A stretch of 63,559 nt of DNA, counting the filler, from Sphacelaria rigidula (taxonomy: Eukaryota): NCBI GenBank assembly GCA_964200075.2. It is 11 parts of 11 records of this genome, joined end to end, with 100 filler letters (N's around TTAATTAATTAA, not from the genome) between each part and the next. Parts side by side here need not be neighbours in the genome. Positions count along the whole stretch, not along the records: positions 5,789 to 11,476 come from CAXNAA020025240.1; 10 more parts are not named here. One strand, given 5' to 3'. The first letter of the stretch is position 1, and the number at the start of each line of letters is the position of its first letter. The position numbers and the translations under genes were made by a program. Shown here one piece after another: positions 1 to 62,773 of this stretch. Under the pieces are notes generated by a model. That model worked only from the letters and a program-made list of their open reading frames with translations. It was not told the DNA's origin and did no database searches.

Positions 1-1254
1 TTTTAATCCTCCGGGTTCTCATCCTCAATCAATAGCACCATCCTCAATATAGATGATTGGCTGTTTGCAATACAGAAACCAACTGTGGGAACCCAGAAAT
101 CCGGAGGAGCATAGCCTGATCGTCATGCATCAAGATTTTTAATAATCTTCCGACAGCTGATGACAAAAAACGATACCCTGCGTTCAACGGCCACACTCTC
201 CTCCTGCTGCTCCTCTTATTTATAATGCTACATCATCAATAATTAGTAGTAGTAACCTGCCGCAGCAGCTATATATATATACTGTATGTGTGTAATATGC
301 TGTATGTAATCATTGGTGACTTGGTTCGCCTATACTCAGTTCAAGTAAATTATTGTTGCCTCGCTGTGCCAAGGTCAAGGGACTTGTTTCACCCTAAAAA
401 AAAGTATCCCAGATCAAGTGAGTCGTCTCGTATGGGAATGAGTGTAAAAATCGGATTTGAAGGAAAAGGAACCCACCCGCCCCCTTCTCACCGGGCAGGA
501 CCAAATGAAATACAAATATAGTACGAATGGTGCCCTTGGTAGTAGTAATAATGATATTTTTGATCTGGGTGATTTTTACCGAACTCAAAGATCGTGCAAG
601 GGTGACGCACATTCCACACGACACTGGCGACAATCTCTGGCGCTCGTGGTGCTCCGCTATACCCTGCCAAACTTATTGCAAGTACCTGATAATTATGTAG
701 ACCGTTTTTTGCTATGAGTCACGCACAGCAACTAATTTGAACAGTAAAATGACGGTAGAGTAAAAATTACTAAAATAATTGAACAGTCCAAGCGTGTCCG
801 TTCACATCGTAATCTTGGATAATGACACATTTACAACAATCAGTAAATCAATTATATATTGATTTTAGTGAGAGCGAGGAAGTGTACTATCTGTTGACTG
901 CTGCTTCATTGCAGTAGCTCTCAAATCAGTCACCCTGACAGCATACAGTAACAGGGCAGTGGATGTGTCCGCACGCCTGCGGGCTGTTCAACTACCGTGT
1001 GCTTCCCTCATTCCGGGGGGAGACCGCGTGGCCTACTGGCCTCCTGAAGGTGCCGGCTCTGTAGAATCCCTGGTTTTGGGGCTGTTTAAAAACAGAAGCG
1101 AACTCGCTTGTCAACGGGACTTGCAGGCTTACAGCTCCCGCAGCTGCCGTACTGTGTCCATCTTCAGTCTGTAGCAGGACAAGGTCTGAAGGCACGCTAA
1201 AATTGGTTGCTCCATTTCGACTTTGGGCGGGTAGGGCGGCGGCGGCGGTAGATC

Positions 1255-3420
1255 ATGCCCCCGATCCGTGCAGAGCATGGTCTATCCTGGCGAAAAAGCA
1301 ACGGAAATGTGTCCGGCTCCTCCGGCATGGGCGACGGCGGCGGGGAAGAGCGTGCCAAACAACCGAGGCGTGCCAGCGGAGTTTCAAGACGTCACAGTCC
1401 CAGCCCCTCCCGTACCCCGAGTCCTAACAACCAACAAGTACCCTCGGTGACCGGCATGCCCGTACATGTTGCTGGGCATGGGCACGTCTTTGGGCATAGT
1501 GGCACCCGCCGCAGCCCATCTTCGAAGGTCTCAGGGAACAGTGCCAACGGCAGTGCGCGCGTGGGGGCAGGGGTAGGAGGGAGCGCGGGGGGTGCAGTAT
1601 TTGGCGCCGATGGTGGCGGATCTTCTTCCCGCGAAAAACGACGAGGTAGCCCAGATTCGGCACGCAAGGGCTATGTTCATGTTGGAGGGCACGCGTCGCA
1701 GCGAACGCTCGGCGGCAAGAGCCCTGCGTTCAGCCCACCGCTCAAGTCTTCTTCTGCAAGAGGCTCTTCCTCCAATGGGGTTTCGTCGTCATGGGGGGTG
1801 TCTTCGCCCACGGCCGGGATTGGGATGGCCGCCGCTAGTCGAGGGCATTCCTCCCCGAACTCGCTTGGCAGGGACAGGAGGGAAGAAAAAAATGAAGGGC
1901 AACCCTTGATGGCGCCACCGCTTCCCGCTGCCTTGTCTGCTGCTGCCGGCCTGGGATCGATGTCTGCTGCCGCCGCTGCCGCTGCCGCCGCCGCGGTTGC
2001 TGCTGCTGATGCTGTGAACGGTATCGGAGGATTCGTCATGAGGCCGCAAGAGGCAGAGGCGAGAGAAATGACCCCGCTTGATCGTGTGTTCCTGGAGCAG
2101 CCCCACGAGGGAAGGAAGGACGTGGAGGATGATGATCTGCATCTTTGTAACGAGATACAGCGGCATTTGCAGTCGAGGGTGCAGTCCCAGCTCATGGAGG
2201 CTACTAATCGCAATGCGTCCGCCGTAAGCGGCCTTGCTGGCGGCGGTTTGGGAGCAGGAGCCGGAGGGGGAGGGGGTCGAGGGTCGGGTGGCGGAGGAGG
2301 GGGCAATGTATCCAGCGCGCGATCTAGGGCGATCAACCACTTCGGAGCGGGTGTACAGCAGTCGATGAACATCGGAGTGTCGGGCTCGCCCGCCTTTGTT
2401 GATCAAGAGATAGAGCTTATCAACGAGGACCGCGGCTGCTTTTCGCCAGATTCCGTACTTACTGGTGTGGGTAGCGATCCTAGCGCGTTCATCACGGCCG
2501 CACCGCACGCCCGACGCGGAGGCGGCGGTGGCATCAACAACAGTGGCAGTGCCGGTGCTGGCGGCGTAAACACGCAACCGGCCTCCGGTACGGTGCCCAC
2601 CGGATACGCTCCACCTGTGTCTATGAACATCGGAGGCGGGGCCGACCTGCTCGATGATCCGGACAACGTCGGCTCGGCGGGTGTGCCTCCTGTCTCTCCG
2701 TCTAGCGGCGGTGGTCCGGCTCAAGGATTTGTGCTGGACTCGGTGGGCAGCTCGGTCGACTTTCTCCTGGATTCGAACGACTCGGCGCCCGGCCGGGGCG
2801 GCGGCGGCGCTCGAGAAGCTTCCCGGATAGGTTCTGAAGGGGACGTGCAGATGGGCGAGGCGTCGGACGACGGGCAGCTGCGGAAGGTGGTGAACGGGTT
2901 GGACGCGATGGATCTCGACGACGTAGAAAACGCCCTCGCCCTGCTCACGGCACAGAAGCAAAGGATCATCGCCAAGCAGCATGCCGGCGCTGCAGCGGCG
3001 GCGGCTGCTCACGCCGAAGCGCAAGCCGTCGCGACCCTCGTGCCGCCGCAACCACCACCAGCACTATCCAGCAACGGCAGCTGCGGAGGCGCCAACGGGG
3101 GGACAAGTTCGTCGAGTAGCCGAACCGGGGGCGGTGGCGGAAAGCAGAGGCGGTTCAGCGGGCGGAGCCGGCACAGCGGGGGCGACGGGCACTCGCCGTC
3201 GGCGGGGGGAAGGTTTGAAGCGTTCGGGGGCTCCGGTGGCGGTGTTCGAGGTGCTCCCGTTTTTTCCCGAGCGCCGCGGGGGCAAGGGCGGCCGCCGCCG
3301 GTGCCGGGGCACTTGTCGGCGTCGACGGCGGCCATGCGGCGTAGCTCTCCCGGGGATATTGCCAGTCTAGCGGAGCTGGATAGTTATTTGGAACACCATC
3401 ATCGACGACTCGTAGAACAG
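1255..3420 (+). CDS. Large coding exon of an unknown G/S/A-rich low-complexity protein (partial gene)
   Basis: The frame is open for 728 codons and is GC-rich relative to its flanks. There is an in-frame stop at 1198-1200 upstream of ATG 1255, and a probable donor CAG|GTGTGG at 3420/3421. Short helical islands (DLHLCNEIQRHLQSRVQSQL; SLAELDSYLEHHHRRLVEQ) are present but I recognise no family. Confidence 0.75.
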
Positions 3421-5516
3421 GTGTGGGTTTATTTGGAATAGGCGTTATTGTTCAGCGTTTATATAAACACACAAATATATGTTTCGCTTCCCCACTGGTT
3501 GTCGGTGTGTTCAAGTCGGCGACCACGAGGGCAAGGCTTTTGCTGTGCCAAGTCCTGACCCCCTGTTGTATTGAAGTGTTGTATTGAGGGGTATCGCCGC
3601 TCGAGGTGTCCTTTTCGCAGACGAAATATTGATTTATGCAAGTTGGAAAGGCACCGCAGGCTAACGCCTCAAGTCAGGAAGTTGCCAAGCTGGTCTGTAA
3701 TATAAAAACTGTGGACGGGTCCAATGTTGACCCTTTGGTGCAATCACGAACTCCCTTCGCTTCAAAACGCGGCGTGCGGCAATCTCGTTCGATCTAGGCT
3801 TGGCATTACGCAGTGCAAAAAAGGTAAAACGTACTCTAAAGCACTTGTACGAATTAACAAGTGCCATGTTTTCATTTTCAGTCAAGTGTAGTTTTGTTTA
3901 GTCTTAGCACGGACATGAGAAGTGTTCATGTCTCGCTCCTGCACAGCTCATAGGTGAGAGTTCATGGTTTGATATTGCAGCATGGCCAAATAGTGCGTTC
4001 CCGATGGATGTGCTGCAACCTGCCTCCACAGTCTTTCTGGTTTTGTTTTTTCTTTTCTGCATGTTCGTTATTTTGCACGACTGTCCTTCTTGCCTCAAGC
4101 AAGCTACCAATCCATCAGCTAATCATGAAGAGCCGTCATTGATAATCGATCCTAGTGCAGGTGGTACAGAAACGCTGAAGCTCGTTTGTCTCACCCATCT
4201 GTTGCGACTCAGCGTAGAGTGAATCCCCGAAATTCCTGACCTTATACTGCGGGTCGTCCCAGCGCTCGGGAAAAATCACGTATGCGGCATATGTGTCGAA
4301 AGTATCTTGTTTGTGCAAGAGTTGGGGCAGCTTCTACCGCTGTTACGTTTTGCTGTATGCAACATGTCCATTGTTGGAACCTTGAACCTCCCGGCGCTAG
4401 AGTCATCGTCGGGGATTTTATTCTCTGACGAGCTTGAAACACCTTCAAGATCAAATCATGCTGGTGCCATCGTTATACTCGCCACTGTATCGCTTCTGCC
4501 CCCCTACCGCTCTATTCCGTTCTTTCACTTCGAAAAAAAAAGTACAACGCAGTACGGCAGATGGTCGGACGCTTGGAGCAACGTAGTATTTCAGCATATT
4601 TCCTTTTGCCCTTTCAATCGAAGAACGTATAGCTGGGTATATAAGTACGGCAGACAGTCAGGCGCGAAACAAGAAGAAGAGTGGGTATATGGTGGTGGTG
4701 GTGGTGTTTTTTGTTGTTATTGCTGCCCCCTTTCTTTCCTTTCTGAGGCCGTTGCTTCTGTCGTTTTTCTGTTCCTTTTTATTTTATTTATTATTCTGTT
4801 CTATTTTTGCTGCTCCTGACCACGGGTTGGATTGTTGCAATCAGCTAATGTGAGATAATCAATCAATCAATCAATACAGATTCTTTCACGTTCATCACCC
4901 AATATTGTGTCATCAGCAACTGCCCTTCGCAATACCTACCCAGTAGTTGCATACATGTCAACACACCGACCGCCATGGACAGCTGAAGAGCGTGACAGCC
5001 GGATTTGTGTTGAAGGCCAAAGTGTTAGCTTAGCGCTTAGCACCCGTCATATTGTTTCGAGATCGAAATTGCGAACTCCAAGCCCAATTTTCACCCAATC
5101 TCCACATGCTTCAAATTTTGATGATCGCCATCAGCTCGGGAATCTTACGGAAAATATGTATGTGTGAACACGGTGACTACGGGGGTCGAATTATACCCCA
5201 AACCGTGATGTTTCTGTGATGGAGGTTCTGGCGTCGTCTAATGTCCACTCATGATACGAATGAAACACCCAGGGAGCCTCGTGATGGTTTACCTTATATC
5301 TGCTGTAAAGAAGCTCCGATCGTCCCCAAACTTGGCTTTTCCGTAGGTATTGATGCTCGGGCCGGATGTTATGGCACACAGATTTTTAGCCCACGGATTG
5401 TTCACGTCTATGACGTTTGACCCACTTTTTGACCCCCAAGCAGAGAAAATCGCCAACACACGTCTGGGACTCTTTGCATCACCCCATAGAGAGGAGAGCT
5501 TAGCCCACTTTTCAGA

Positions 5517-5688
5517 TTCGCTTGGCTCCAAGGTTTCAAGAGTGGCCGCTGAACAATAATCCGTGTGCAATAAAATCTAAGGCGATGCCCACAGATTATT
5601 GGGCAAAGTGGCGGGGGTCGGCAGGCACAGATTATTGCACACGGATTATTGTTCAGCGGCCACTCTCGAAACCTTGGAGCCAAGCGAA
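5517..5688. repeat. Near-perfect inverted repeat (57-bp arms) cut by the contig end
   Basis: 5517-5573 matches the reverse complement of 5632-5688 with 1 mismatch. CACAGATTATTG sub-repeats lie in the spacer and at its junction with the right arm. Confidence 0.9.
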
Positions 5689-5788: not shown

Positions 5789-5815
5789 CCCCTTCCCCCA
5801 CCCCGCTTCACTTTC

Positions 5816-5859
5816 ACAAATGACTAAGGCACGCAACAAATGAGTACGCCCCCCCCCCC
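5816..5859 (+). mobile_element. Poly(C)-tailed LINE 3'-end fragment (family A)
   Basis: AAATGACTAAGGCACGCAACAAATGAGTACG followed by C11, matching the 3' end of the LINE at 38824-39335. Confidence 0.85.
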
Positions 5860-5877
5860 TCCTCACTTTCTGCCATT

Positions 5878-6449
5878 AGCCTGGCCCGGCAAGAACTCAG
5901 CGTGCTCCGTTCCGGCTTTGTAGGGACGACCCCCTATGGGGTTGGTGTGGATTGGGCAATGACGCTGTAAAACACGCCTCTCACTGCGTAAGCTAGGCAA
6001 CCAGGTTCCCGGATATTTGTCACGCTCTTGCGTATTTTTTTGCGGTGATCATAATGGTGGTCGAGCTATAACATTTTGTGCGGGGTGAGAGAACCTCAAT
6101 TCCGCGCAAAGGGGATGGCAATACTATGTACTGTTTACGTGGTGAGACACGCATGAGGTAGTGTGTAAGCCGTGGCTGTCTCTGGAAGTGGCGATACCAG
6201 AAAAAGAAGCAATTCATTGTAGACTGTCACCCAAACACAAGATAATCAGTACGCTTCGGGGCGAACAATCTTAGCAGGATGTAGCTCACCCTTCATGCGA
6301 CTCGCCGAACACATCACGGCGCTTCGCGCTCGGTCATTGATTGCGAGCCTGATCCGGCGAACATCCGGCGTGGCCCGTCCCGACTTTGTATGGGTGCGAG
6401 GTCGATGATCAGATGACTACGGCATGAAAGATCATGAGTACACCCCCCC
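5878..6449 (+). mobile_element. Non-coding poly(C)-tailed SINE-like element (family B) placed just after the family A tail
   Basis: Aligns with 34132-34624, 38492-38820(-), 46299-46390, 49443-49610 and 52086-52160(-). It ends ...GATCATGAGTACA-C7 and has an internal ~48-bp direct repeat (5880-5927 / 6346-6395). No long ORF. Confidence 0.85.
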
Positions 6450-7367
6450 GCGCGCCTCCCCCCACCAAGATAAAAAAACACAAAGCCATGGGTCGTCTTG
6501 AGCTCCGGCGCCTGCGGGTCTAATGAGTCGAATTGACAACAAATGTCAAGTGTGGCGTATCGACGTGATGAAATGATATCATCTCCATTTCAAGTAAACC
6601 ATGTACGGTTGGCGACGGTGTGTAAGACCCCCCGGTGATACATTTTGGTGTCCGAAAAGTCATTATCCGCGGGTGTTTTATTAACGAGGGTGATATTCTA
6701 CTTACCTCAGTGCGGTACTATACATAACAAAATAACGCCAAAGGTAGCCGAAACATCGTTATTGTCCTTGGTGCTTTTTCACGGAGGGGTGGTGTAGTAC
6801 GTGCCGTTGACAGCACCGTTGTCTACGATGTGAATGTCGACACTTTCGGGATAGCACGAGTCTCATATCCTGTTGGTCTGATTCTTTTTGTGAGAACATC
6901 GAACCCTTGAGTTTCAATTGTAGCCTCTCTCATCCACCTCGCCTACAATAATCACGCCTTCCTCCTTGGCTTGTATGACACTGCTGACGTGGCGCTTTTT
7001 GTTTTTGCTTTTTGTCCCGAAAAATTCGGAGAAAGGTACACTTCCGGGCTGTGACGATGGTGTATGACCTGTTGGACTGATTGATATATCGGTTTTGAGG
7101 TGTGAAGAAACAATGAAGACTTCGGACCGATGTGCTCTTGAATTTAGAAGGATGTGTTGCGAAGAGAACGAGGCAAATATTTTTTGTTTACAACTGATGT
7201 TGTGTGTTTTTGGTGAAAAAACCCAAGCTTTTTTGGACTCACGCAATGTTGGTGAGAAACAACACTTTCTCATCGACCACTGTTTTCTCCGCCTGTGTCT
7301 CCGTCGTTACCGCCGTGGTCGCTTTGCGTGACATGTGCACAACATGGCTTGTATTTCGGTGGTGCAG

Positions 7368-7475: not shown

Positions 7476-9522
7476 GTTGGTTCTTTTTTTAGTATTGGTG
7501 TTTTCTTGTCGCCTTCCATTTCCTCTTCATCTCTTTTTTTTCTTCTGATTTTCCCTCCCTGTCTGTTCGTTTCCCCGGTTCTTCTCCCATCTTTTTTAGC
7601 TTTTCAACTTTACGACCGTACTCCCCTGCTCCTGTCAGCACGGTCGTATTTACCACGTAGTGCTGCTTACACACCACAGGATGGTCTGTACACGGCTACA
7701 CGCAGTCGTTCGGATGTATACTTGATACGCGACGAATCAGGGTGCCCAGCGTGCGTTCGATTCCCAGAGCCCCAGAGCGTACCATGCAGCTCCACCGTGT
7801 TGTGCGCCCTCTATTTACGAGACCGTGGTGAACACAAACACTTTATTACGTGTATTTTGGTGTGTTGGGGTGCCACGACGGTAGACCCGCCTGATCCTCT
7901 GACTTTGTTTGGGTCATCAGGGCTGCAGACCTCTGTGAAGCGAGAGCGCTCAGCACTGCACTGAGCGCTGACACTTTAATAGCTGCCAGAGCCGCCGTAT
8001 TCCGTATGCTTTGGGGATGAACTCTCAGCGAATTGATTGCAATGTACACAAATTCCAGAGTCTGCGTTTTCACGGTAACTCACGCCTACGGCCTTTTACC
8101 CGATGGGGCCGTGAAGTGGCCATGATACATGACCCACTTACTTTTTCGTCGTTGCGTCTTCTCCGAAGAACGGTCGTTTCGGAGTATAGAATGAAGTGCG
8201 GCTTGCAAAGCTCTCCACGCGGGGAAGCAGCGGCATCTCATGCTTTTTGTCTTGTAGCAATCCTTGATGCAGAATCGAATACCGGGCCCTGCTTGAGTGA
8301 TGATTGACTGACTGTCACACTTTAACTGACCCCCCCAGGGATCCGCTCGTGGTCACATGATACCTGTGTGTTCGTCTTTGCTTGTCGGCTCTCAGACCGT
8401 GAGCAGGGTGTATAAAAGGCGGTATGAAAAGAAAAGTGCCGAAAACGAAGAGACGTCAAGAAAGGAAGCCAGTCTATCATGCTGTGCTGCGGCGGGCACG
8501 AAAGTGTGTGTATGTGACGAAACGCTCTCTATTTGCACCCGTACATGGAAGTGACCATTCGTGTTTTACCCTTGGAGCAGCTGCCCTATTTTTGTTTCGC
8601 AGTGCGCGTGCGGGGGTAGAAAAGCTTGTGCGCGTGTGCGCCAGATCTACAGTACCTCCCACGCATGTTGTTTTTCATCATACATATTATGTTATGATTG
8701 CAAGATGGTCAAAGATAGCTGAGGCTTCATCTGCGTCCGTGGCCTTATTTTTTGTCCGGCATCGGCATCTTTCTTGAAGCCCTGGTCGACACGTTATTTT
8801 GTTTTGTCTGCGGATCAGTACCCAGTTTTTAGCCTTGCGTTGCTTCGCCGTTCTGTTCTGTGTATTCTTGTCCTTCATTTGTAATTCTGGCTTCCTTTTC
8901 ATCGGCTTCCTCCCGCGATTGCTTCTGTCTCCGTTTTTTTGCACCTTTGATATGTATGTTTTCGTAGCCGCCATTGAAATCGTACCGACTCGGTTAATGT
9001 GTGGCAATCAATGAACCAATTCAGCAATGAACAAATGGGGGAGGCACCGAGGGTTGCAGATGTTGAGAGTCCGGTCGCGGTTCACCGTACTGCGTACAGC
9101 ACCTGCTCTCTGCACTCACCATTGATGCCGTACATTGTTGTATATATTCAAGGTCCGTTCTCCTCACCAGCGAATAGGTGTTTCGAGTTCTGGCTTACGT
9201 TTTTGCACGTCACTCATCACGTTGAGATCTTGACCACGTCGGCAGGTTGTGGCTTCATTACTAGGATCGTATGCCGTAGGCTTTGTGTCGTTGTGTGGAG
9301 TACGTGAAGAGCAGATGGATATCCTCGGTCCTGACGTGCACCCCCCTCCGATCCTACGGAGTATGTGATTCCCCCAAACTCTTGACTGTTTCGCACCGCA
9401 ACTGTGCAAAGCTACGATATCCGCGCGCTCGTTTATTGCAGTTGTTGTTCATATATGAATTTGTTGTTTCAATTCGTGTGCGATATTTATTTGTCGTTGT
9501 ACTGTACTGTACCATACTGCAG

Positions 9523-9693
9523 GTCTACAGGCCGACGTCTGGGGATGCGATGTACCTGGTTCTCGATCGGTTGGAAGGGGGGAGCGTGGAAGGTCTGTGG
9601 CGCGAGCAGGGAAAGTTGAGCGAGGATCACGCGGCCCACATCATGCTGCAGGTCGTGTCGGCTGTGCATTACTGTCACCAGCGAAATATTGCG
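9523..9693 (+). CDS. Ser/Thr protein kinase (CAMK/CDPK-like), exon with subdomains V-VIa; GC donor
   Basis: Encodes VYRPTSGDAMYLVLDRLEGGSV...AVHYCHQRNIA. The donor G|GCAAGT at 9694 joins in frame to HRDLK. Confidence 0.9.
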
Positions 9694-10810
9694 GCAAGTA
9701 TACTCAAGAAAATAATACGCCACGTACAAGAGTAATATAGCACAGATAAGTTGTAAGGCCTGATGACTCCCTGCAGTATTTGCAGACTGAATTTTTTTAA
9801 TTTTCATGAATAAAATCGCTCGAAACTTACTTTCGCAGCTCTTGTTCCCTCCGCGGTGCCTTGTTAAAGCGTTACGGTCCAAGTTCACACTTCACCCAGA
9901 GATATCTCGACTGTATTCCAGCAGAGGAGCACCAAACAAGGGTATTCTCCTGCAGCGGATTACACAGCCTGTTTTTTTGTTGTTGTAACACGGAACAGTA
10001 GCGGATTCGTTCGTGTTTTTTGTGATTACTTCGTATCATGCTTGTGTGATCATACTTGTAAACCCTTGTAAATCCCTCCGCTGCCAGACCCCCCACCCCC
10101 CCCGCCACAGGACGAGTGGGTAGTCCCATGGGATTGTGCCATGTCTCCGCCGATCCTTGTCTCTTGAATCAGCATCCCAACAGACCGACGAGTTTGGTGG
10201 AAATTATCGCTGTTTCCTTATTTTTTCTGTCGGCGGGAACCAGGAACAATGATTCGAAGATCTTGTACTGTTGGGTTTCGAACCCATGATCGTCGCCGTC
10301 TTATCCTGAGAGGTGGGACGACGTTTCGGGGGAGGCGGGAAGGGAAGAGAAGACAGCGACCAAACCAGATCTTCTTGGGAAAGGGAAGCGATCAGTTTTC
10401 TAGATCTCTCATTCTGTTGCTATCCGCGTGCTGTGCTCTGTTGGTCCTTTTGCTTTAGAAGCCAATTCGTGCTTTGCTTCGCGTTCTTCATCGTGACCTG
10501 ACGATATACAATGAAAGGTCACTATCAGTCAATTGTACATGTTCTTCATGCGTTTTTTTTGTGTTTTGCTAATGAATCGATTTTACCAAAAATGATAGTC
10601 ACACGTACGCCCTAGGATTGAAGACCTCATGCTTTCGGTCTTTTTGTCGCCAAGATTCCAGTTTGACGACGTATCGCTTAGACATACTGCCTAATGCCTA
10701 GAACTCGAGGCGTGAGATTGTTTGTTCAATTGTACAGGTACTCAGTCCCAAACGCTACCCCCCCCTGTTGTTTCTCCCTTCTGTAATGTATCTTGGGCAA
10801 AACCGATCAG

Positions 10811-11576: not shown

Positions 11577-11640
11577 TACTCATTTGTTGCTTGCCTTAGT
11601 CATTTGACCATTGACCACGCATCCCTTTCGAGACGGAGCA
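11577..11640 (-). mobile_element. Family A LINE 3'-end fragment (tail lost at contig break)
   Basis: Reverse complement reads TGCTCCGTCTCGAAAGGGATGCGTGGTCAATGGTCAAATGACTAAGGCAAGCAACAAATGAGTA. Confidence 0.9.
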
Positions 11641-12254
11641 TCATTCCATGGGGATGAAAATATGCAAATTCGTACCCAAGTAATGGTGGCATATACTGAT
11701 CTAAATAATTAATTGCATTGTTAAGGTTTTCTCATCTTACACAGCAATAACAGTTAACACGGCGGGTTCACATTTGCCACCACTAGGTAGCCTTGCGCCG
11801 TCACACGTTGTTGTGCAACTACATATTTACAAAATTCCAGCCTCTAGGTTCTAAAATCGTATGTCTTTCACGCTGTCGATGACTGTGGACTTAAATAATG
11901 TGGCCGACCTCGTTAAGAAATGCAACAGCTCGAGGGCGTAGATCTGGTAATGCTTCCAAGACGTTTGGGTCCTTCATCACGTCGTAACGTCACGTGACTC
12001 CGACGCATATCATCACGCGGTTGCTCTCGTCATTCGAAATAAGCTGGAAGCGGCGCTGGGTTGCGAAAACATACACAAGCGTGGTCAGGCGGTCGGCAGC
12101 GTACACACACCATGCTCCGTACTGTACAGTTATCTTTAAAGTGGTAGGCAACTGGCGCAGACCGGTGTCGTCTCGTGACGGAAGACGCGGGGTTCACGAC
12201 GTACGATACAATCCAATTTGCAGCTCGGATACAGCTAGAGTAATGTGGACTCAC

Positions 12255-13170: not shown

Positions 13171-13436
13171 CTTCAAGCAGCGTCACGTTCACAGAATCGA
13201 TCAAGCATCTCCGGTAAGTGTACGTGGTGGTATAACATACACCTGTACTTCTAATAATGACGTGTGACACGTGGCATTTGAACTTCATTGACTTCCAAAA
13301 TACAGTGTGCTGTTTCCCAGATGAGATTGACACACATGTACTACTGCATGTGAACATACGGCTGTGAGGGCGACCCCCACATCCACGAGGTAAAAGAGAA
13401 GGCAATGAGTTGCTGATCTTGGATGTGCAGCCGTAC

Positions 13437-13540
13437 CTGAGATAATGAGAGTTTGCGGGAAATTTCTCGGATCACCGTCGTTTTACCAGACCCCGGCGCT
13501 CCCAGGATGAGGAGAGATGGAGCTTTCCTTGGTGTCTCCT
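13437..13540 (-). CDS. Ycf45/SpoIIIAA-like ATPase exon (Walker A)
   Basis: Encodes EETPRKAPSLLILGAPGSGKTTVIREISRKLSLSQ. Confidence 0.93.
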
Positions 13541-13857
13541 CTGCATGAAAGAGCAAAAGACACAAATGAGGGAAGGTGCTCGAACAAAGATACTTTTGTT
13601 CATTCTACTGCACAAGGTACCATCGAGAAGGGTCGAGCGGCACATCCACGGTACCTCGCGTCCGTCAGGGAGCAGGTAGCATCTAAATAACAGTATATCC
13701 ACCCCAAACACGATGGATCAACGAATGGATATATTGTTGGTCTGGATGCATCTTACGGCGGGAAAGGATTATCCAACTCTATCTCAGCAAAAGCACTGCC
13801 CCCTTCGCCAATCAAGCGTGGACATGCACTGACTTCAGCTGACGAGGGAAATCGCAC

Positions 13858-22934: not shown

Positions 22935-23050
22935 CGGAGACCTGCCAGGAACAAGAAAGATATATAGCAGTCGTCGAAAGGAGGAGGAAGTAGATAGAAT
23001 GAACTGCCTCTGTGGCAAAGCAATAGAGAGCAGAAGTCATATAGTGGCAG
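22935..23050 (+). mobile_element. Family A LINE fragment (C-terminal zinc-knuckle region)
   Basis: DLPGTRKIYSSRRKEEEVDRMNCLCGKAIESRSHIVA matches the translation of 39160-39270(-). Confidence 0.85.
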
Positions 23051-23389: not shown

Positions 23390-23640
23390 ATGCCGTGATG
23401 CCCCCCTCCCCCCCCGAGAAAAGTGGCTGGTTTGAGGAGGCAAAATCTACATGCGAATCAAAATGACAAGGGCCGAGCACGCTGCGAGCAGCGGGGAAAT
23501 CCCGCCCTTGGGATCATTTCCGCCAATTTTGACCGTATGAGACGCTCTATGCAGTCTAAAACCGGCTATCAATCGCTGTATGACCATTTTCTTCGCGACA
23601 GTTTTGTTTGGGGCTGGTTTGAGGGGAGTTATCGCGGCAT
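23390..23640 (+). mobile_element. MITE-like element (family C) with C-run/G-run-containing terminal inverted repeats
   Basis: Ends are ATGCCGTGATGCCCCCC and GGGGAGTTATCGCGGCAT. The ~200-bp core matches 40015-40254(-), 47400-47625(-) and 53967-54230. Confidence 0.75.
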
Positions 23641-27078: not shown

Positions 27079-27161
27079 CAAGATACCTCGATGATCTCGG
27101 CGCCACATACTAGCCATGAAAGGTCATTGATGAATTGACGGGTTGAGCAGTCAAATGATTG

Positions 27162-27330
27162 CACACCCTGGAGATTATATGCCCAATGGATGCAGTAGAG
27201 AAAAATGTACTGGATAAAGTAGAGGCCTATTGCAACTATTGTCGACCGACAATAATTGCGATAGGCCTATACTTTGCCCAGTACATTTTTGTCTACTGCT
27301 CTATTGGCCATGGGGTGTGTCCAGGGTGTG
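27162..27330. mobile_element. Palindromic MITE (family E), 8-bp TSD
   Basis: CACACCCTGGA...TCCAGGGTGTG, with ~82-bp arms and a 4-nt loop. Flanks are AATGATTG / AATGATTC. Confidence 0.88.
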
Positions 27331-29499
27331 AATGATTCAAGGACGTGTCGGGCAATATCGGGTATACCCGATATTGTGATATTTCGAAGAGTCGCCTATT
27401 ACCTGCTCACGTCTGTCATCACAACTTGTACGGGCTTTAGAGAGGGGAGCAATAGCACTGAGCTGGCTGCTACTGTGGACATGGATCGGGCCTCCACTTC
27501 TCATAATACCTAACTATTGGGCATACTCTACCCGACCCGCCGTTGTGATGATTGTTGCACATTCACCGGTTCATGACAAAGCGAGCCGTGGTCATACGAT
27601 AGACCCTTCCAAGGAGAAAAATAGAACGGAAAGACTCGCGATAGAGAACCGAGACAAGAGGCGACCTTTTCCCCATTCTTTCAAATGTCCCGTAAGGAAG
27701 ATCTCAAGGAAATGCCTTCATAGACACACACACCCTTTCGTAATCGATTGAACACCGTTACAGGGGAGAATGAGGATCATGACGACGAAAACGAAAGAGT
27801 GCAAGGGAAAAAAAAAACGCGGAGGAATATACACGTCATTTCTACAAGACACGCGCTTCGTCCCCAATTAAATTGATTTTAGTATACAGTAGTGCAGCAC
27901 TTCCATCCAGTTTTTCTCGGCACAGGAAGCAAGTCGGCCTGTGGCACTTTACAGCCCCTCGCACACATACAAAAGCCAGGGGGTCATGCGTTGGTTTCTC
28001 ATTGATCGCCACAGCGGATCTCAAAAGCCTCCAAAACAGCAATAAGCAGCCTGTTTTGGTACACTTTCGTTTGGTGCAGTGTTTGTGGAACGCCTCAAGG
28101 AACGCCATGTATGGCTCCCTAGTTTGGGTGTGTGGCAAGCCTACGCGAGAAGCCGCACTCCAATCCTCTGCTTGCTTGCGGAGATGACCGTGTTGAAAGA
28201 CTGCCACTTTCGGGTTTGGAACCAGCAGCGTCTTAGCGATACTAGCAGTATGCCAGGTCAACGTTTTCTGCTGCTGCTGCGGTGTGTGGCGGCCGCTACT
28301 ACAGCTAACAACTTTTTCGTGAAATTGAGAGTTGAAGGTACGATTGAGAGTGAAAAGCGGTCAATGAGTGAATAAGCCGTTTCAGTTCCGAAATGCACAT
28401 CCACCAGGCCCAATATGTTTGCTGTAGTAGCTTGCCACTGAGACCCTCGATACCCCTGAGTAGGATATCATCGTGTAGCTGTAAGCACATGGCAGTGATG
28501 AGACGACGAAAATCACACATGGAATGAAAAAATGGCCAAGTTATAGCAAATGATCAAAGCCACTCTCAATCCACACCCAACTCTCAATCTCACGAAAACC
28601 TTGTTGTTCCCGATTTGTTTTGCTGACCGCGGGACGTGCCCTGAGAAAGGTTACACTTCGCCGCCCTCACTGTATTTTTCGTCGCACTTTGAACTCCCCC
28701 CCTTTCTCGAGATGAGTCCGTGGTCTCGAGGGATCAACCCATCTCTCCCCCAATATAACTGAATCAAAGGAAATGGAAAATGAGCACAGACGGAGGGAAC
28801 TTGGGAGAGAACGTCGAAGGGGCGATCTAAGCAGAAANNNNNNNNNNNNNNNNNNNNNNNNNNNNNNNNNNNNNNNNNNNNTTAATTAATTAANNNNNNN
28901 NNNNNNNNNNNNNNNNNNNNNNNNNNNNNNNNNNNNNCCCGAGCTATGCTATTGACAGCTTTTGTGTTTTCGTGTTTTACGTGGTAAAGTTGACCTCAAC
29001 ATACTGTATACAGTACGACGAACACTTGAGAAGAACACAGCACCAGCACGAGTCGTCCTCTCATGCTCGTGGGATTTTTCGGGTAAACTCCGGCAGCGTA
29101 CTCCGCAGTCCGATCAGTTTAAACCAACAGTTGTACATGGGGATTTTGCTGTTTCGTGAGCAAAAAAACAAGTTCTGAGCAAACTCCTATTTGTGGACAA
29201 TATTTCCACCTTTTTCTCCGTGTTCCAACTTGTTTTTTCAATCAGGACGCATTGTCTGTGACACATGGGGTGTTGCGCGTTCTTTATACTTCAAAACGTG
29301 CAACCAAATTCGGTGTGTCTCATCTACCATTCTGCGCTCACAATGTGCGCGTTCCGTAATACCAGTCACACCACACCCATGCCGGATGTTCCACCTTCTA
29401 CTCGTCAGATATAACACAGATTCATAACCGATACAGACATCCAATCTCTAGCTCAACCTTTTGATAGGAGTCTTTACCTTTACCATCTAGAAATTAAAT

Positions 29500-34131: not shown

Positions 34132-34624
34132 GCCCTGGTCCGGCGAGAACCGGCGTGCTCCGTCCCGGCTTTGTAGGGGCGGACCCCGGATGAGGTTGGT
34201 GTCAGTCGGCGATGACGCTATTGAACACGCCGCTCACTGCGTAAGCTCGGGAACCAGGTTACCGGGGGTTTTACGCGCTTGACTTCTTTTTGCGCCAACC
34301 GTGATGGTACCGTAGTCGATCTAGATCATGTTGTGCGGCGTAGAGAACATCAACTCCGCACAATGAGGATGATCCTACTACGTGGTGGTGTTTGAATGGT
34401 GAGACACCCATGGGGCAGTGTATAAGCCTTGACTGTCTCTGGAAGGGGCGATACCAGAAAATAGAGAAAGTCATTGTTGGCTGTCACCGAAATGCAAGAT
34501 AATCAGGGGGCTTCGGGTCGAACAATCTCACCAGGATGCAGCTCACCCTTCATGCGACTCGCCTAACACACCACGGCGCTTTGCGTTTGGTAATCGAGTG
34601 CGAGCCTGGTCCGGCGACAACCCG
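34132..34624 (+). mobile_element. Family B SINE-like element, cut by the contig end
   Basis: Collinear with 5880-6365. Confidence 0.85.
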
Positions 34625-38491: not shown

Positions 38492-38820
38492 GGGGCGGGG
38501 GAGGGGAGGGGTGTGTGTGTACTCATGATCTTGCATCCCGTAGTCATGCCGTAGTCATAGGACCACTGCCCTCGCATCCCTGCAAAGCCGGGATGGAGCA
38601 CGCTGGGTTTTCGCCGGACCATGCTTGCAATCACCAAGCACGAAGCGCCGTGATGTGTTCGGCGAGTCGCATGAAGGGTGAGCTGCATGCTAAGACTGTT
38701 CCGACCGAAGCGTATTGATCATCTTGAACACGGATGACAGCTTACGATGAGTTGCTTCATTTTCTGGTATCGCCACTTCCAGACAGCCACGGGTTACACA
38801 CTGCCTCATGGGTGACTTAC
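38492..38820 (-). mobile_element. 5'-truncated family B element directly downstream of the family A poly(C) tail
   Basis: Its reverse complement matches 6140-6449. The 5' junction abuts G13 at 38824-38836. Confidence 0.88.
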
Positions 38821-38823
38821 CAT

Positions 38824-39335
38824 GGGGGGGGGGGGGCGTACTCATTTGTTCTTTGCATGAGTCATTTGATCATTGATTACATGTCCCTTTCGAGACGGAG
38901 AACCGTTCCTACTCCAAATAGAGACATCTCCAACAGTTGGGGCGCACATTACGCTTCTTCCGTACACCACACAGAAGCCTCCTACATATCTTATCCACGT
39001 CCTGTTTCGCCGTCTGCGGCCAAGATCTATCTTCTACAGTAGTGTAGCCATCGTTTTCTCCCTACTGTCTAATGCATCAGACGATTCCATGCCACCTTCG
39101 TTTACTTCCCGCAGTCCCCCCTCTGGCACGTCCCGTTCCTCCTTTAATGGTTCACATTCTGCCACTATATGAGTTCTACTCTCTATTGCTTTGCCACAAG
39201 GGCAATTCTGTGCATCTATTTTCTCCTCCTCTCGACTACTGGTTCATATCATTCTCCTTTCTGGCAGGTGCGGGTCCCTCACCCGAGATCGTACAGTCAA
39301 TTTTTCGCGTAGTCCCTTTGGCCATGCGAATATGT
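38824..39335 (-). mobile_element. 5'-truncated CCHC-knuckle LINE (family A) with a poly(C) tail
   Basis: Decayed ORF end ...HLPERR..SSREEEKIDAQNCPCGKAIESRTHIVAECE...DALDSREKTMA...SRNGSPSRK, then TGA-GTACG-C13. The CxC-x8-H-x4-C knuckle resembles non-LTR ORF2 C-termini. Confidence 0.85.
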
Positions 39336-40014: not shown

Positions 40015-40254
40015 TATGCAGCGATAGCACCCCCCCCCCCTCCCCGCCCAAAACCAGCCACAAAACTGTCACGAAGGAAACGACCACACAGCGCATGATG
40101 GCTGGTTTCAGAATGCATGAAGCACCTCCTGTGGGCAACATTGGCGGAAACGATCCTAGGCGTGGGAGTTCCAAGCTGCTCGGTGCTCTCGGCTTTTTTT
40201 TCCCCCATCATTTTGATTCACATGTAGATTTTGGGTCCTCAAACCAGCTACTTT
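40015..40254 (-). mobile_element. Family C MITE-like element whose G-run end is hit by family A insertions
   Basis: The core matches the reverse complement of 23420-23625. Confidence 0.75.
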
Positions 40255-40411
40255 TCTGACGGCGGGGGGTACTCATTTGTTGCTCACCTTAGTCGTTTGA
40301 CCATTGGCCGCGCATCTCTTTCGAGACGCTCTGACGGCGGGGGAGGGGGGGGGAGGGGAGGGCGTTCTCATTTGTTGCTTGCCTTAGTCATTCGACCACT
40401 GACCACGCATC
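40255..40411 (-). mobile_element. Two stacked family A 3'-end insertions, the first with a 14-bp TSD
   Basis: TCTGACGGCGGGGG occurs at 40255-40268 and 40330-40343. The second copy spans 40345-40411. Confidence 0.9.
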
Positions 40412-46298: not shown

Positions 46299-46390
46299 GG
46301 CGTACGCCGCCCCGGCGTTGTAGGTATGCGAGGTCAATGGTCTTATGACTACGGCATGCATGATCATGAGTATACCCCCTCCCCCTCCTC
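46299..46390 (+). mobile_element. Family B 3' end with C-rich tail
   Basis: ...GAGGTCAATGGTCTTATGACTACGGCATGCATGATCATGAGTATA-CCCCCTCCCCC. Confidence 0.85.
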
Positions 46391-46620
46391 CGAAAGAATC
46401 CGTTGTCCCGCGGGATAACTCCGTCTCTGTCACGGCACACGCCTTGCACGTTGGCATCGCGGATTGAATCAACACTGCCGTGCCTCGCCGAATATCGTCA
46501 TTTGCTTTTTGTTGCTATTCACGTCCTCACGATTCAACGACGAGAGAATCAGATGATTCTCAGAACCAAACCCAGATGCATCTCATGGGGATCGAGTCCA
46601 CCTGGTTTCCCCCATTTTTC
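46390..46620 (-). mobile_element. tRNA-derived SINE, decayed copy
   Basis: The body matches 24680-24900 and has a B-box-like GGACTCGATCC. Confidence 0.55.
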
Positions 46621-47289: not shown

Positions 47290-47625
47290 TTTTTACGATA
47301 CCCCCCCCCCCATAGTGCTCCGTCTCGAAAGGGATGCGTGGTCAATGGTCACACGACTAAGGCAAGCAACAAATGAGTACGCCCCCCCCCTCCCCCCATG
47401 AAAAAAATAGCCTAAACTCACACTAAGAAAATGGTCATCATAGAGCCTGATGCATTTCTTCAGGCCGCATAAAGCGCCGAACATGTGCGAGATCGGCGAA
47501 ACCGAACACAAGCGTGGGGAATCCCAGCTACTCGTTGTGCTCGGCTTTTCATTTCGATTCACGTGTAGATTTTTCGCCTGCCCAAACCAGCAAGGGTCTT
47601 GGGGGAGGGCTATCGTAAAAAGTGT
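47290..47625. mobile_element. Family C MITE with a family A 3' end (47316-47397, +) nested in the C-run of its left TIR
   Basis: CTTTTTACGATA-C11 ... GGGGGAGGGCTATCGTAAAAAG. C-runs flank the nested insert on both sides. Confidence 0.85.
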
Positions 47626-49442: not shown

Positions 49443-49610
49443 ACTCACCCCTCATGCGACACCCCGAAGACATCACGGCGCTTCACGCTTGGTGATTGCG
49501 ACTCTGGTCCGGCGAAATCCGGCGTGTTCCGTCCCGACTTTGTGGGGATGCGAGGTCAATGGTCTAATGACTGCGGCATGACTACGGCATGCAAGATCAT
49601 GAGTACACCG
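49443..49610 (+). mobile_element. Family B 3' portion
   Basis: CTCACCCCTCATGCGAC...GCAAGATCATGAGTACACC. The tail is only 2 C. Confidence 0.85.
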
Positions 49611-50266: not shown

Positions 50267-50355
50267 CGATAGGGGGGGGGCGTACTCATTTGTTGCTTGC
50301 CTTAGTCGTTTGACCATTGACCACGCATCCCTTTCGAGACGGAGCACGATAGGGG
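50267..50355 (-). mobile_element. Family A 3'-end insertion with a 9-bp TSD
   Basis: CGATAGGGG occurs at 50267-50275 and 50347-50355. The tail is G9 on the plus strand. Confidence 0.92.
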
Positions 50356-51902: not shown

Positions 51903-51985
51903 TAGCTAAAGGGACAAAATGAGACGTGAACAAAAGTGGCATGAAATCGTTTGATGCATTAGACAGTAGGGAGAAAACGATGGCT
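51903..51985 (+). mobile_element. Family A LINE internal fragment with its 5' junction at a C-run
   Basis: Encodes VNKSGMKSFDALDSREKTMA and is preceded by the C-run ending at 51902. Confidence 0.85.
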
Positions 51986-52650
51986 NNNNNNNNNNNNNNN
52001 NNNNNNNNNNNNNNNNNNNNNNNNNNNNNTTAATTAATTAANNNNNNNNNNNNNNNNNNNNNNNNNNNNNNNNNNNNNNNNNNNNGCCTGAAGCGTGCTG
52101 ATTATCTAGCATTTGGATGACAGCCTCCAATGAGTTGCTTTATTGTCTGGTATCGCCACTGGGGGGAATGAATCCGTATCGACAGAGAATAAAACACGAT
52201 GCACATCATGCACAATGGAGATGTTGCAGAACAAATGCACAATACAAACGGTCTCCCTCCGTGGAGAGAAAAATTATGCAAGTGCGGGCCTCCGGTGTAC
52301 TGAGCCTGACCGTGTCAAGACGGGGTTTTCATCTAGACTGCATGCAGCAGTACCGCACCACCACGCCAAAAGCAGACCATTCCCCCAACATGCAGCTATA
52401 TTTTGCCAACTCGAACAGTTAAATACTTCGACGGCACGGCGCGACTTCGGTAAGGTGGTCACGACTTACAGTGCAGTTCATGCTGAAAGTCCCGGTTTTC
52501 CGGTACAATGACGGGCGTCGAATCGAGCAGACACCAAAAATTGCCGTGGGTTTGGGAACAGTCTCCTCCATAAAACTCAGGACATTCCTACACTAGAGCA
52601 TGACCGGTCTGAAGTGTGGCCACCGCTACCCTCAAAATTCCGCAATACTT

Positions 52651-53628: not shown

Positions 53629-53722
53629 CTGGTACTTGAGCAGAGCCTCAGCAGGCAGCTGTAGCTCCTTGAACATGAGAGCCAGTGATTCCTTCACAAC
53701 GAAGAACTCTCCGAAGTCCCAC
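53629..53722 (-). CDS. TRAPPC10: TRAPPC10 exon (signature motif)
   Basis: WDFGEFFVVKESLALMFKELQLPAEALLKYQ matches the Trs130 WNFxxFFxxKExLAxxF...ALxxYxEL block. Confidence 0.9.
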
Positions 53723-57469: not shown

Positions 57470-57537
57470 ATCCCGAAAGGGATACGTCGTCAATGGTCAA
57501 ATGACTAAGGCAAGCAACAAATAAGTACGCCCCCCCC
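57470..57537 (+). mobile_element. Family A 3' end with C8 tail, intronic
   Basis: ...GTCAATGGTCAAATGACTAAGGCAAGCAACAAATAAGTACG-C8, with a C-rich 5' flank. Confidence 0.88.
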
Positions 57538-57554
57538 TCTGTGCGTGCCCTTGC

Positions 57555-62720: not shown

Positions 62721-62773
62721 CACTATGCGGTCGGAACTGGTGGCGGTGTAACTGATCATGCAGAGAAAAAATA

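What the first reader, a model, noticed from the sequence alone, without database searches (positions are those of the whole stretch)
5878..6449. Non-coding partner element (family B) shares the LINE's last ~70 nt and C-tail: a candidate LINE/SINE pair
Seen: family B ends TGCTCCGTCCCGGCTTTGTAGGGATGCGAGGTCAATGGTCTAATGACTACGGCATGCAAGATCATGAGTACA-Cn (consensus by eye of the copies). This is collinear with the LINE end TGCTCCGTCTCGAAAGGGATGCGTGGTCAATGGTCAAATGACTAAGGCAAGCAACAAATGAGTACG-Cn, while upstream sequence is unrelated and non-coding. Six copies occur in five contigs. Established: 'stringent' LINEs mobilise SINEs that share their 3' end. Inference: B parasitises A, and the shared segment (possible GGTCA...TGACT stem) is the RT recognition signal. 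B might correspond to an abundant unclassified repeat already reported in Ectocarpus; I have not checked this.
Basis: partly seen in the sequence, partly recalled or inferred. Interest (0 to 1): 0.78.

Follow-up and report, generated by a model that had tools for sequence, protein, structure and literature searches.

The report
LINE-dependent non-coding retroposon, already described
A roughly 570-base non-coding repeat in this brown-alga-like DNA copies the last 60-70 bases and C-rich tail of a jumping gene (a LINE) and probably borrows its machinery to spread, an arrangement published for the brown alga Ectocarpus in 2025.

Summary
The window is 11 fragments of about 5.7 kb. Family B occurs six times in five fragments. 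Its last ~60-70 nt are collinear with the family-A tail and the rest is unrelated. No reverse transcriptase lies next to any A tail in the window. Three outside contigs (L001-L003) show that the A tail is the 3' end of a LINE with one endonuclease plus reverse-transcriptase ORF. The ORF's stop codon lies a few bases before the C-run. B is non-coding and is 5'-truncated at three different points. Both families sit in C-runs, including each other's tails.

B shows no tRNA, Rfam or Pol III box signal and carries an internal T-run, so it is not a classical SINE.

A 2025 Ectocarpus paper (PMC12477816) describes the same kind of pair: RTEX-1/RTEX-2 LINEs with (C)n tails and C-rich target duplications, and a ~605 bp partner, RTEX-N1, sharing 60 bp at 83%, head unknown, sometimes in tandem.

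Verdict: real and correctly read, but of low novelty. The species and sequence identity to RTEX-N1 could not be checked.

The parts
5880..6449 (+). Family B, full-length copy B1 (~570 nt), non-coding
   Evidence: Shares its 5' end with B2, with unrelated upstream flanks. Longest sense frame is 61 codons.
5882..5925 (+). 5' motif of B1: a diverged repeat of the first ~44 nt of B's own tail domain, including hairpin 1
   Evidence: the repeat finder family D10. The 6-bp stem is intact here and in B2's motif.
6035..6041 (+). T7 run inside B1 (T5 at 34287-34291 in B2), which would act as a Pol III terminator
   Evidence: Many other copies carry T-rich runs just after 6011 (loose ends).
6370..6442 (+). 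3' module of B1 shared with the LINE tail
   Evidence: Alignment. 79% over 58 nt against L001, E 1.5e-8.
6443..6449 (+). C-run tail of B1
   Evidence: In other genomic copies the sequence after 6449 is also a C-run (loose ends).
5817..5862 (+). LINE (family A) copy cut down to its last 32 nt (5817-5848) plus a C-rich run (5849-5862), flanked by an 8-nt direct repeat (5808-5815 and 5863-5870)
   Evidence: 97.5% to L001 over 5817-5856. Flanks read by eye.
34134..34624 (+). Family B copy B2, full 5' end, 3' end cut by the fragment end
   Evidence: 79% over 490 nt against B1; alignment.
38497..38822 (-). Family B copy B3, 5'-truncated at the position matching B1 6140, inserted in the C-run of the LINE copy upstream
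   Evidence: The same A-tail-to-6140 joint is seen in 4 and 3 contigs of two runs.
38824..39334 (-). LINE copy holding the last ~509 nt of the element (end of the ORF plus tail)
   Evidence: 81% to L002 and 78% to L001.
40258..40328 (-). Short LINE tail copy (~66 nt) flanked by a 12-14 nt direct repeat that starts in a C-run
   Evidence: by eye.
40348..40411 (-). Second LINE tail copy, in tandem with the previous one, cut by the fragment end
46299..46391 (+). Family B copy B4, tail only, at a fragment start
47315..47398 (+). LINE tail copy (~67 nt plus C-run), with an 8-nt C-rich direct repeat at the flanks
   Evidence: 97% to L001 and L002; flanks.
49444..49609 (+). Family B copy B5, 5'-truncated (~166 nt), with an 11-nt internal duplication shared with B3 and no C-run
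50271..50347 (-). LINE tail copy flanked by an 8-9 nt direct repeat that starts in a C-run
   Evidence: 98.7% to L002; flanks.
52087..52160 (-). Family B copy B6: internal piece, 5' end preceded by a C6 run, 3' part cut by the fragment start
57471..57539 (+). LINE tail copy
   Evidence: 94% to L001.
11577..11647 (-). LINE tail copy at a fragment start (last bases and C-run cut off)
   Evidence: 97% to L001.
22939..23050 (+). Internal LINE fragment (end of the ORF region), cut by the fragment end
   Evidence: 80% to L001 over 112 nt.
51923..51985 (+). Internal LINE fragment, cut by the fragment end
   Evidence: 92% to L002 over 63 nt.

Best explanation
Family B is a non-autonomous, non-coding non-LTR retroposon of about 570-600 nt. 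Its 3' terminal module (about 60-70 nt plus an oligo-C tail) is copied from a LINE that encodes an apurinic-type endonuclease and a reverse transcriptase. In the LINE, this module is the last ~20 codons of the ORF, the stop codon and five more bases before the C-run. Inferred mechanism: the LINE's reverse transcriptase recognises this terminal module on B RNA in trans ('stringent' 3'-end recognition). The C-tail of the RNA anneals to a G-run exposed at a nick in a C/G-run target, and target-primed reverse transcription then copies B. This often stops early, giving 5' truncation. Because every inserted copy brings a new C-run, later copies of either family land in earlier tails. That would produce the A-B, A-A and B-B tandems seen here. 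B is not a classical Pol III SINE, and how its RNA is made is unknown (read-through or a Pol II promoter are guesses). Shown here: the shared module, the LINE's coding capacity, B's lack of coding, 5' truncation, C-run insertion sites, and target duplications for A. Inferred: trans-mobilisation, the role of the module as the recognition signal, and C-tail/G-run priming.
For: A is a LINE tail. L001:694-4455(-) is a 1253-aa frame with Exo_endo_phos (E 3e-11) and RVT_1 (E 8e-33) that ends inside the A tail. L002 and L003 carry the same architecture. Window A copies are 90-99% identical to these tails, and one window copy extends 509 nt into the LINE.

The module looks constrained. L001 and L002 are 79% identical over 3.6 kb, but 97% in the last 75 nt, the highest of 48 windows. 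Three further proteins that are 67-86% identical over the last 118 residues (71-86% over residues 850-1253) end in the same or nearly the same peptide (identical in P0019), among them one annotated in Ectocarpus sp. CCAP 1310/34.

B shares only this module. It has no frame above 61 codons.

Of the five copies whose 5' end is in view, two share one 5' end with unrelated flanks and three are truncated at different points.

Direct repeats of 8-14 nt that start in a C-run flank 4 of 6 A copies with both flanks in view (by eye).

The window shows A-tail-to-B junctions at 5862/5880 and 38828/38822. L003 has a LINE tail followed by C13 and then B-like sequence. Contigs of two DNA-type runs repeat A-to-B, B-to-B and B-to-A joints, for example 10, 8 and 5 contigs in X1.

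The run whose contig covers the unique flank 6421-6700 with 0 differences gave 75,392 contig pieces at 80% or more on the stretch, so the families are highly repeated in the source genome.

Independent curation of Ectocarpus reports the same set of features (PMC12477816: passages, supplement file 1).
Against: No clear target-site duplication could be read for the two B copies with both flanks in view (B1, B5). B3 is ambiguous because both flanks are C-runs.

B5 has no C-run.

Predicted tail structures are no more stable than shuffled sequence: z from -1.3 to +0.6, with 18 to 143 of 200 shuffles folding as well.

No base pair shows a compensatory double change: 0 of 11 pairs, and only one-sided changes in the 6-bp stem. 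Most copies are dead and decaying, so they say little about selection either way.

The conserved C-terminal peptide, also kept in a related form in LINE proteins only 41% identical over the last ~117 residues (44-50% over residues 850-1253), could mean that part of the tail's conservation in the LINE acts at protein level.

Trans-mobilisation itself is untested.

The LINE's first several hundred bases were not available, so descent of B's head from the LINE's 5' end cannot be excluded. The paper notes a 'weak homology' there.
Confidence: 0.85

Rival explanations
1. B is a classical SINE: a Pol III transcript with a head derived from a tRNA, 5S or 7SL RNA and an internal promoter, fused to a LINE-derived tail.
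For: B has the LINE-derived tail, is short and is highly repeated. The Ectocarpus paper leaves the SINE option open.
Against: ARAGORN finds no tRNA in the window. Rfam gives no match at gathering score. With E up to 10 on B1 and B2 it gives only sub-threshold CRISPR-DR, SNORD60 (opposite strand) and GA-cis hits. A-box and B-box matches at up to 2 mismatches number 0-2 per copy, no more than the 0.9-1.7 expected in shuffles, and none lies at the same place in B1 and B2. A T7/T5 run lies about 155 nt from the 5' end in 2 of 2 full copies. By established knowledge, this should stop Pol III before it reaches the tail.
Confidence: 0.07
2. B is not an independent family. It is the 3' part of a longer sister LINE, or a heavily deleted LINE whose head still derives from the LINE's 5' end.
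For: The paper's note says 'weak homology to 5' of RTEX-2_Ec32'. The LINE contigs held here lack the first several hundred bases, since both published consensus lengths exceed what L002 and L003 hold.
Against: B1 and B2 start at the same base beside unrelated flanks. No part of B except the tail matches 5.0-5.2 kb of two LINE lineages at E<=1. B has no long frame. The published partner consensus is 604-607 bp and is marked complete.
Confidence: 0.05
3. The full-length B unit seen here is a 'one-and-a-bit-mer'. An older core B, starting about 57 nt further in and right after a C-run, inserted into the tail of another B. A copy that kept a deleted remnant of the upstream tail then became the master. 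This refines the best explanation and does not exclude it.
For: B1 and B2 both begin with a ~44-nt diverged copy of the start of B's own tail domain, followed by a short C-run. In L003 the B-like sequence starts just after a LINE's C13 at about B1 position 53. Among other genomic copies, the sequence just before 5955 reads as a C-run followed by B-like bases (475 and 445 loose ends, agreement 0.65-0.67). B-to-B tandem joints exist, and the paper notes tandems.
Against: Only two full-length copies are in view. Contig-based loose ends are noisy and partly reflect clipped alignments. The published consensus could not be read to see where it starts.
Confidence: 0.4

Closest known systems
RTEX-N1_Ec32 with RTEX-1_Ec32 / RTEX-2_Ec32 of Ectocarpus (PMC12477816; passages and supplement file 1 read)
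   Same: Both are autonomous LINEs with a single EN-RT ORF, a (C)n 3' end and C-rich target duplications. Both have a ~600 bp non-autonomous partner that shares only about 60 bp of the 3' end (published 83%; here 77-79% for single decayed copies). In both, the head is of unknown origin, tandem arrangements occur and copy number is very high.
   Different: Sequence identity could not be tested, because the paper's FASTA libraries are not readable here. B1 is 570 nt against the published 604-607. The window's species is unsettled: a kinase exon has 73-78% best hits and no Ectocarpus hit. B may therefore be the same family or a relative in another brown alga.
'Sower', the most abundant unclassified repeat of the first Ectocarpus genome paper (as cited in PMC3145265, one passage read)
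   Same: It is the most abundant repeat, at about 2.5 Mb or 1.2% of the genome. That is the same total as the 2.48 Mb given for RTEX-N1_Ec32.
   Different: No sequence or structure of Sower was seen. The equation Sower = RTEX-N1 = B is an inference from the matching totals only.
RTEX-N2_Ec32 (188 bp)
   Same: A second partner family with a B-like tail (3' 100 bp, 87% to RTEX-N1).
   Different: It is much shorter. The 166-nt copy at 49444-49609 could be a truncated B or of this kind; this was not resolved.
Stringent LINE/SINE pairs such as eel UnaL2/UnaSINE1 and ruminant Bov-B/Bov-tA (recalled, not looked up here)
   Same: The partner shares the LINE's 3' end, which is the reverse transcriptase's recognition element.
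   Different: Those SINEs have tRNA-derived Pol III heads, and the shared part is 3' UTR. Here no Pol III head is found, and the shared part is the end of the LINE's coding sequence.

Membership tests
LINE-dependent non-autonomous retroposon (SINE in the broad sense) | 3' end shared with an autonomous LINE of the same genome | tested here: met
   56-58 nt at 77-79% (B1), E down to 1.5e-8. The LINE's nature is shown. LINE pieces occur in the window.
LINE-dependent non-autonomous retroposon (SINE in the broad sense) | No coding capacity of its own | tested here: met
   The longest sense frame in B1 is 61 codons. The only frame of 75 aa or more that overlaps B1 is on the other strand and has no Pfam hit.
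LINE-dependent non-autonomous retroposon (SINE in the broad sense) | 5' truncation with constant 3' ends | tested here: met
   3 of 5 copies with the 5' end in view are truncated, at three different points.
LINE-dependent non-autonomous retroposon (SINE in the broad sense) | Target-site duplications | tested here: inconclusive
   Clear by eye for 4 of 6 A copies. For B: none for B1 or B5, and B3 is ambiguous. A shuffle test of the flanks was not completed.
SINE in the strict sense | Head derived from tRNA, 5S or 7SL RNA, with an internal Pol III promoter | tested here: not met
   Also an internal T7/T5 run.
RTEX-N1_Ec32 (Ectocarpus) | About 604-607 bp; 60 bp 3' end ~83% to the LINE; C-rich target; tandems; head unknown | tested here: met
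   The descriptors match. B1 is about 35 nt shorter than the consensus.
RTEX-N1_Ec32 (Ectocarpus) | Sequence identity to the published consensus | not testable with these tools
   Supplementary FASTA files MOESM1 and MOESM2 are listed as unreadable.
RTE-X clade LINE (family A) | Single ORF with N-terminal AP-type endonuclease and RT; very short 3' UTR | tested here: met
   The stop codon lies five bases before the C-run.
RTE-X clade LINE (family A) | RT domain groups with RTE-X references in a phylogeny | not tested
   No named reference sequences were at hand. The clade name is taken from the paper, by matching the (C)n tail, which only its RTE-X families carry.

The most novel reading that the evidence does not exclude
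The recognition module of this LINE lies inside its own coding sequence, with essentially no 3' UTR. The LINE is effectively a C-run-specific inserter whose every insertion creates a new target. This self-seeding would have built the B unit itself, as a core element plus a deleted remnant of an upstream B tail. It would also explain the 'unknown head' of the most abundant brown-algal repeat.
Probability: 0.3. Interest if true: 0.35.

Novelty: new member of a known kind. Interest (0 to 1): 0.15.

Why it matters
The pair is a clean example of a LINE and a dependent non-coding partner outside animals and plants. By the published count, it is the most abundant repeat family in a brown-alga model genome. 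For annotation, it means these ~570-nt repeats and the many 40-100 nt C-tailed stubs should be masked as one LINE system. Its scientific novelty is low, because the same arrangement was curated and published in 2025. Three small additions remain from this work. First, the shared module is the end of the LINE's ORF. Second, the module is far more conserved than the rest of the LINE. Third, the B head begins with a partial copy of its own tail.

Tried and rejected
(1) I looked for RT or endonuclease domains beside the A tails in the window. In 20 plus 99 frames, none was found. The LINE had to be fetched from outside.

(2) No whole genome is held for this window. Earlier findings of this scan gave nothing.

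(3) The viral-contig scan for the tail pattern gave 0 hits.

(4) Hammerhead or other known RNA in the tail or in B: nothing at Rfam gathering score. Only sub-threshold hits appeared on B1 and B2. Among them, SNORD60 sits on the opposite strand at the same position in both copies (18.5 and 19.9 bits against 42 needed). I treat it as chance.

(5) Pol III boxes: not above shuffle expectation.

(6) Covariation: RNAalifold found 0 compensatory pairs, and folding energies were not better than shuffles. The MAFFT alignment put the first stem of A and B out of register, so I read that stem by coordinates instead. My offsets for the second hairpin were two bases off, and those columns are not used.

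(7) Species: a 729-aa frame and a kinase exon gave only brown-algal named relatives at 39-42% and 73%, so no species could be named.

(8) Run search: seven further coded organisms hold small shares (0.10-0.17) of the sampled words.

(9) RNA-library contigs do hold B pieces, some inside longer contigs, for example a 3533-nt record. The libraries may contain DNA and contigs cannot show starts, so this is no evidence for or against a B transcript of its own.

(10) A shuffle test of flank repeats (target duplications) was not completed. The duplications are given as read by eye.

(11) Summed contig depths are not copy numbers and were not used as such.

Full report
**Layout of the window.** The window is not one stretch of genome. 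It is 11 fragments of 5687-5688 bases joined by N/linker spacers. No whole genome is held for it. Named protein relatives of two frames are all brown-algal:
- Ectocarpus sp. 8 at 42% and Choristocarpus at 39% for a 729-aa frame.
- Laminaria digitata at 73% for a kinase exon, with no Ectocarpus hit.

The source is therefore a brown alga or a close relative, and the species is not settled.

**The observation.** Self-BLAST of the fragments finds family B six times in five fragments:
- B1, 5880-6449 (+), full length.
- B2, 34134-34624 (+), cut by the fragment end.
- B3, 38822-38497 (-).
- B4, 46299-46391 (+), tail only.
- B5, 49444-49609 (+).
- B6, 52160-52087 (-).

Family A is seen as short 3' ends at 5817-5862, 11577-11647, 38824-39334, 40258-40328, 40348-40411, 47315-47398, 50271-50347 and 57471-57539.

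The alignment of eight A ends and four B ends shows one collinear terminal module of about 70 nt. Family-specific differences are shared by all four B tails, and sequence upstream is unrelated. B against A scores 77-78% over 62-70 nt inside the window (E about 1e-6). B1 against L001 scores 79% over 58 nt (E 1.5e-8). The tail-end motif occurs 7 times against 0.05 expected.

**Is A a LINE?** Inside the window this cannot be shown. None of 20 plus 99 open frames, including all frames of 75 aa or more upstream of the A tails, has a reverse-transcriptase or endonuclease domain.

A pattern scan for the tail found two metagenome contigs (L001, L002). It also found one contig filed under a bacterial MAG (L003). 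All three carry, on the strand of the tail, one long frame. In L001 it is 1253 aa, with Exo_endo_phos (E 3e-11), Exo_endo_phos_2 and RVT_1 (E 8e-33). This frame runs straight into the A module, and its stop codon lies five bases before the C-run.

Window A copies are 90-99% identical to these tails. The copy at 38827-39334 continues 509 nt into the LINE. Internal LINE pieces lie at 22939-23050 and 51923-51985. Family A is thus the 3' end of an autonomous, apurinic-endonuclease-type LINE, mostly present as severely 5'-truncated stubs.

**Constraint on the module.** L001 and L002 are two LINE lineages, 79% identical over 3.6 kb. In 75-nt windows their identity ranges from 0.60 to 0.89, except in the last window, the tail, where it is 0.97. 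That is the highest of 48 windows.

The two tail differences between them are both non-synonymous as read. By the stem reading, one turns a U-G pair into U-A. In one search, the other lies in a hairpin loop.

A search with the LINE's C-terminal 404 residues found seven proteins. The three closest are 71-86% identical over residues 850-1253 (67-86% over the last 118 residues). One of them is annotated in Ectocarpus sp. CCAP 1310/34. All three end in the same or nearly the same peptide that the A module encodes (identical in P0019). Two more distant ones (44-50% over residues 850-1253; 41% over the last ~117 residues) end in a related peptide.

Ectocarpus LINEs therefore have this kind of tail. 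Part of its conservation in the LINE could act at protein level.

**What B is.** B shares nothing with 5.0-5.2 kb of the two LINE lineages except the terminal module. Its longest sense frame is 61 codons.

B1 and B2 start at the same base next to unrelated flanks. B3, B5 and B6 are cut at three different 5' points. This is the 5'-truncation pattern of target-primed reverse transcription.

Tests for a small-RNA-derived, Pol III-type head all came back empty:
- ARAGORN finds no tRNA in the window.
- Rfam finds nothing at gathering score.
- At E up to 10 on B1 and B2, Rfam finds only sub-threshold hits.
- A-box and B-box matches are no more frequent than in shuffles, and none is shared in position between B1 and B2.
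- Both full copies carry a T7 or T5 run about 155 nt from the 5' end (6035-6041 and 34287-34291).
- Many other genomic copies have T-rich runs at that place.

By established knowledge, Pol III stops at such runs. B is therefore a LINE-dependent non-autonomous retroposon, not a SINE in the strict sense.

**Insertion sites.** Flanks printed show, by eye, direct repeats of 8-14 nt in 4 of 6 A copies with both flanks in view. Each repeat begins in or just after a C-run. These are the copies at 5817, 40258, 47315 and 50271. The copy at 57471 has only about 5 nt, and the copy at 38824 is obscured by B3.

For B no clear duplication is seen. B1 and B5 show none, and B3 has C-runs on both sides. A shuffle test of these repeats was not completed.

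Several junctions place elements inside C-runs:
- B3 sits directly in the C-run of a LINE copy.
- B1 lies 17 nt after another LINE stub.
- Two A stubs are in tandem at 40258-40411.
- In L003 a LINE tail is followed by C13 and then B-like sequence.
- Two A stubs are inserted in the terminal C-run and G-run of an unrelated ~220-nt inverted-repeat element.

Contigs of public runs add to this. The run whose contig matches the unique flank 6421-6700 without a difference gave 75,392 pieces at 80% or more on the stretch. Recurrent joints were A-tail to B (10 and 4 contigs), B-tail to B (8) and B-tail to A (5). C-runs follow position 6449 in other copies.

This fits priming of reverse transcription by a G-run at the nicked target, paired with the RNA's C-tail. 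It also fits each insertion creating a new target. Both points are inferences.

**Structure of the module.** A 6-bp stem closes a GAAA loop in A and a 9-nt loop in B. All six pairs are intact in 7 of 9 A-type sequences, 2 of 4 B tails and 2 of 2 B head motifs. Variation consists only of one-sided changes that keep pairing.

RNAalifold adds a second hairpin. It has 0 compensatory changes in 11 pairs. Single-sequence folds are not more stable than shuffles (z from -1.3 to +0.6).

Hairpins are possible and their loops differ between families, but there is no statistical support. Dead copies are in any case poor material for covariation.

**The B head.** B1 and B2 begin with a ~44-nt diverged copy of the start of B's own tail domain, including the 6-bp stem, followed by a short C-run. 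In L003, and in the loose ends, B-like sequence begins just inside this point, directly after a C-run.

One reading is that the present unit descends from a core element inserted in the tail of another B, with a deleted remnant of that tail kept. I give this reading about 0.4. It rests on two full copies and on noisy contig data.

**Comparison with what is known.** The 2025 Ectocarpus transposon paper (PMC12477816) was read as passages, part 1 of supplement file 1 and supplement searches. It lists:
- RTEX-1_Ec32 (5867 and 5511 bp) and RTEX-2_Ec32 (5582 bp): single EN-RT ORF, (C)n 3' end, C-rich target duplications.
[quoted passage not shown] It has more than 6000 copies and 2.48 Mb, the most abundant family.
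- RTEX-N2_Ec32 (188 bp), with a similar tail.

In that list only the RTE-X families have (C)n tails. Every descriptor fits A and B.

A review passage (PMC3145265) says the first genome paper's most abundant unclassified repeat, 'Sower', covers about 2.5 Mb. The matching total suggests Sower is the same family, but no sequence was seen.

The paper's FASTA libraries are not readable here. Identity of B with RTEX-N1 is therefore untested. Because the species is unsettled, I file B as a new member of a known kind. If the window is Ectocarpus, it is simply already known.

**Verdict.** It was published in 2025 for a brown alga. The strict SINE label fails its defining test. Small additions from this work are:
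- The shared module is the end of the LINE's coding sequence.
- The module is far more conserved than the rest of the LINE.
- C-runs of unrelated elements and of earlier copies serve as insertion sites.
- The B head starts with a partial copy of its own tail.

Interest is low.

Noticed in passing
window 23400-23620, 53968-54213, 40026-40268, 47385-47625: A ~220-nt repeat family with a C-run at one end, a G-run at the other and short inverted flanks beyond them. It looks like a MITE or foldback element. Two of its four copies carry LINE tail stubs inserted in their terminal runs. The Ectocarpus paper mentions a 217 bp TcMar-N1 MITE, but no link was tested.
   Followed up: partly
window 1252-3438 (+): A 729-aa open frame with no Pfam family. 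It has 16 homologues at 38-91% identity, mostly from single assembled contigs, and the named ones come from Ectocarpus sp. 8 and Choristocarpus. The graded identities suggest a repeated, possibly transposon-borne, brown-algal protein.
   Followed up: partly
window 60475-62775 (-): Copia-type remnants: Retrotran_gag_2 (E 1e-10) and a gag-pre-integrase piece. A 148-nt unit repeated three times in tandem lies at 62771-63214.
   Followed up: no
window 32300-33500: Arrays of ~42/84-nt degenerate tandem repeats (families D2 and D5).
   Followed up: no
window 45479-45895; 5517-5688; 27154-27337: Long self-complementary (palindromic) stretches of 419, 175 and 188 nt at 80-84%.
   Followed up: no
window 9280-9732 (+); 53476-53760 (-); 13344-13604 (-): Exon-like frames: a protein kinase piece whose relatives are EF-hand kinases, a TRAPPC10 N-terminal piece and a P-loop NTPase piece.
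   Followed up: partly
L003 (whole locus): A contig filed under an uncultured-bacterium MAG is almost entirely a eukaryotic LINE, 95% identical to L001, with a ~62-nt tandem repeat at its 5' end. This is likely a binning contaminant.
   Followed up: partly
proteins P0022, P0023 (Ectocarpus sp. CCAP 1310/34): LINE proteins only 41% identical to L001 over the last ~117 residues (44-50% over residues 850-1253) still end in a related terminal peptide. The terminal module, or its peptide, therefore seems older than the A lineage.
   Followed up: partly
window 6167-6225 (-) and 34424-34482 (-): Sub-threshold SNORD60 matches (18.5 and 19.9 bits, 42 needed) fall at the same position of B1 and B2 on the antisense strand. 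I treat them as chance.
   Followed up: no
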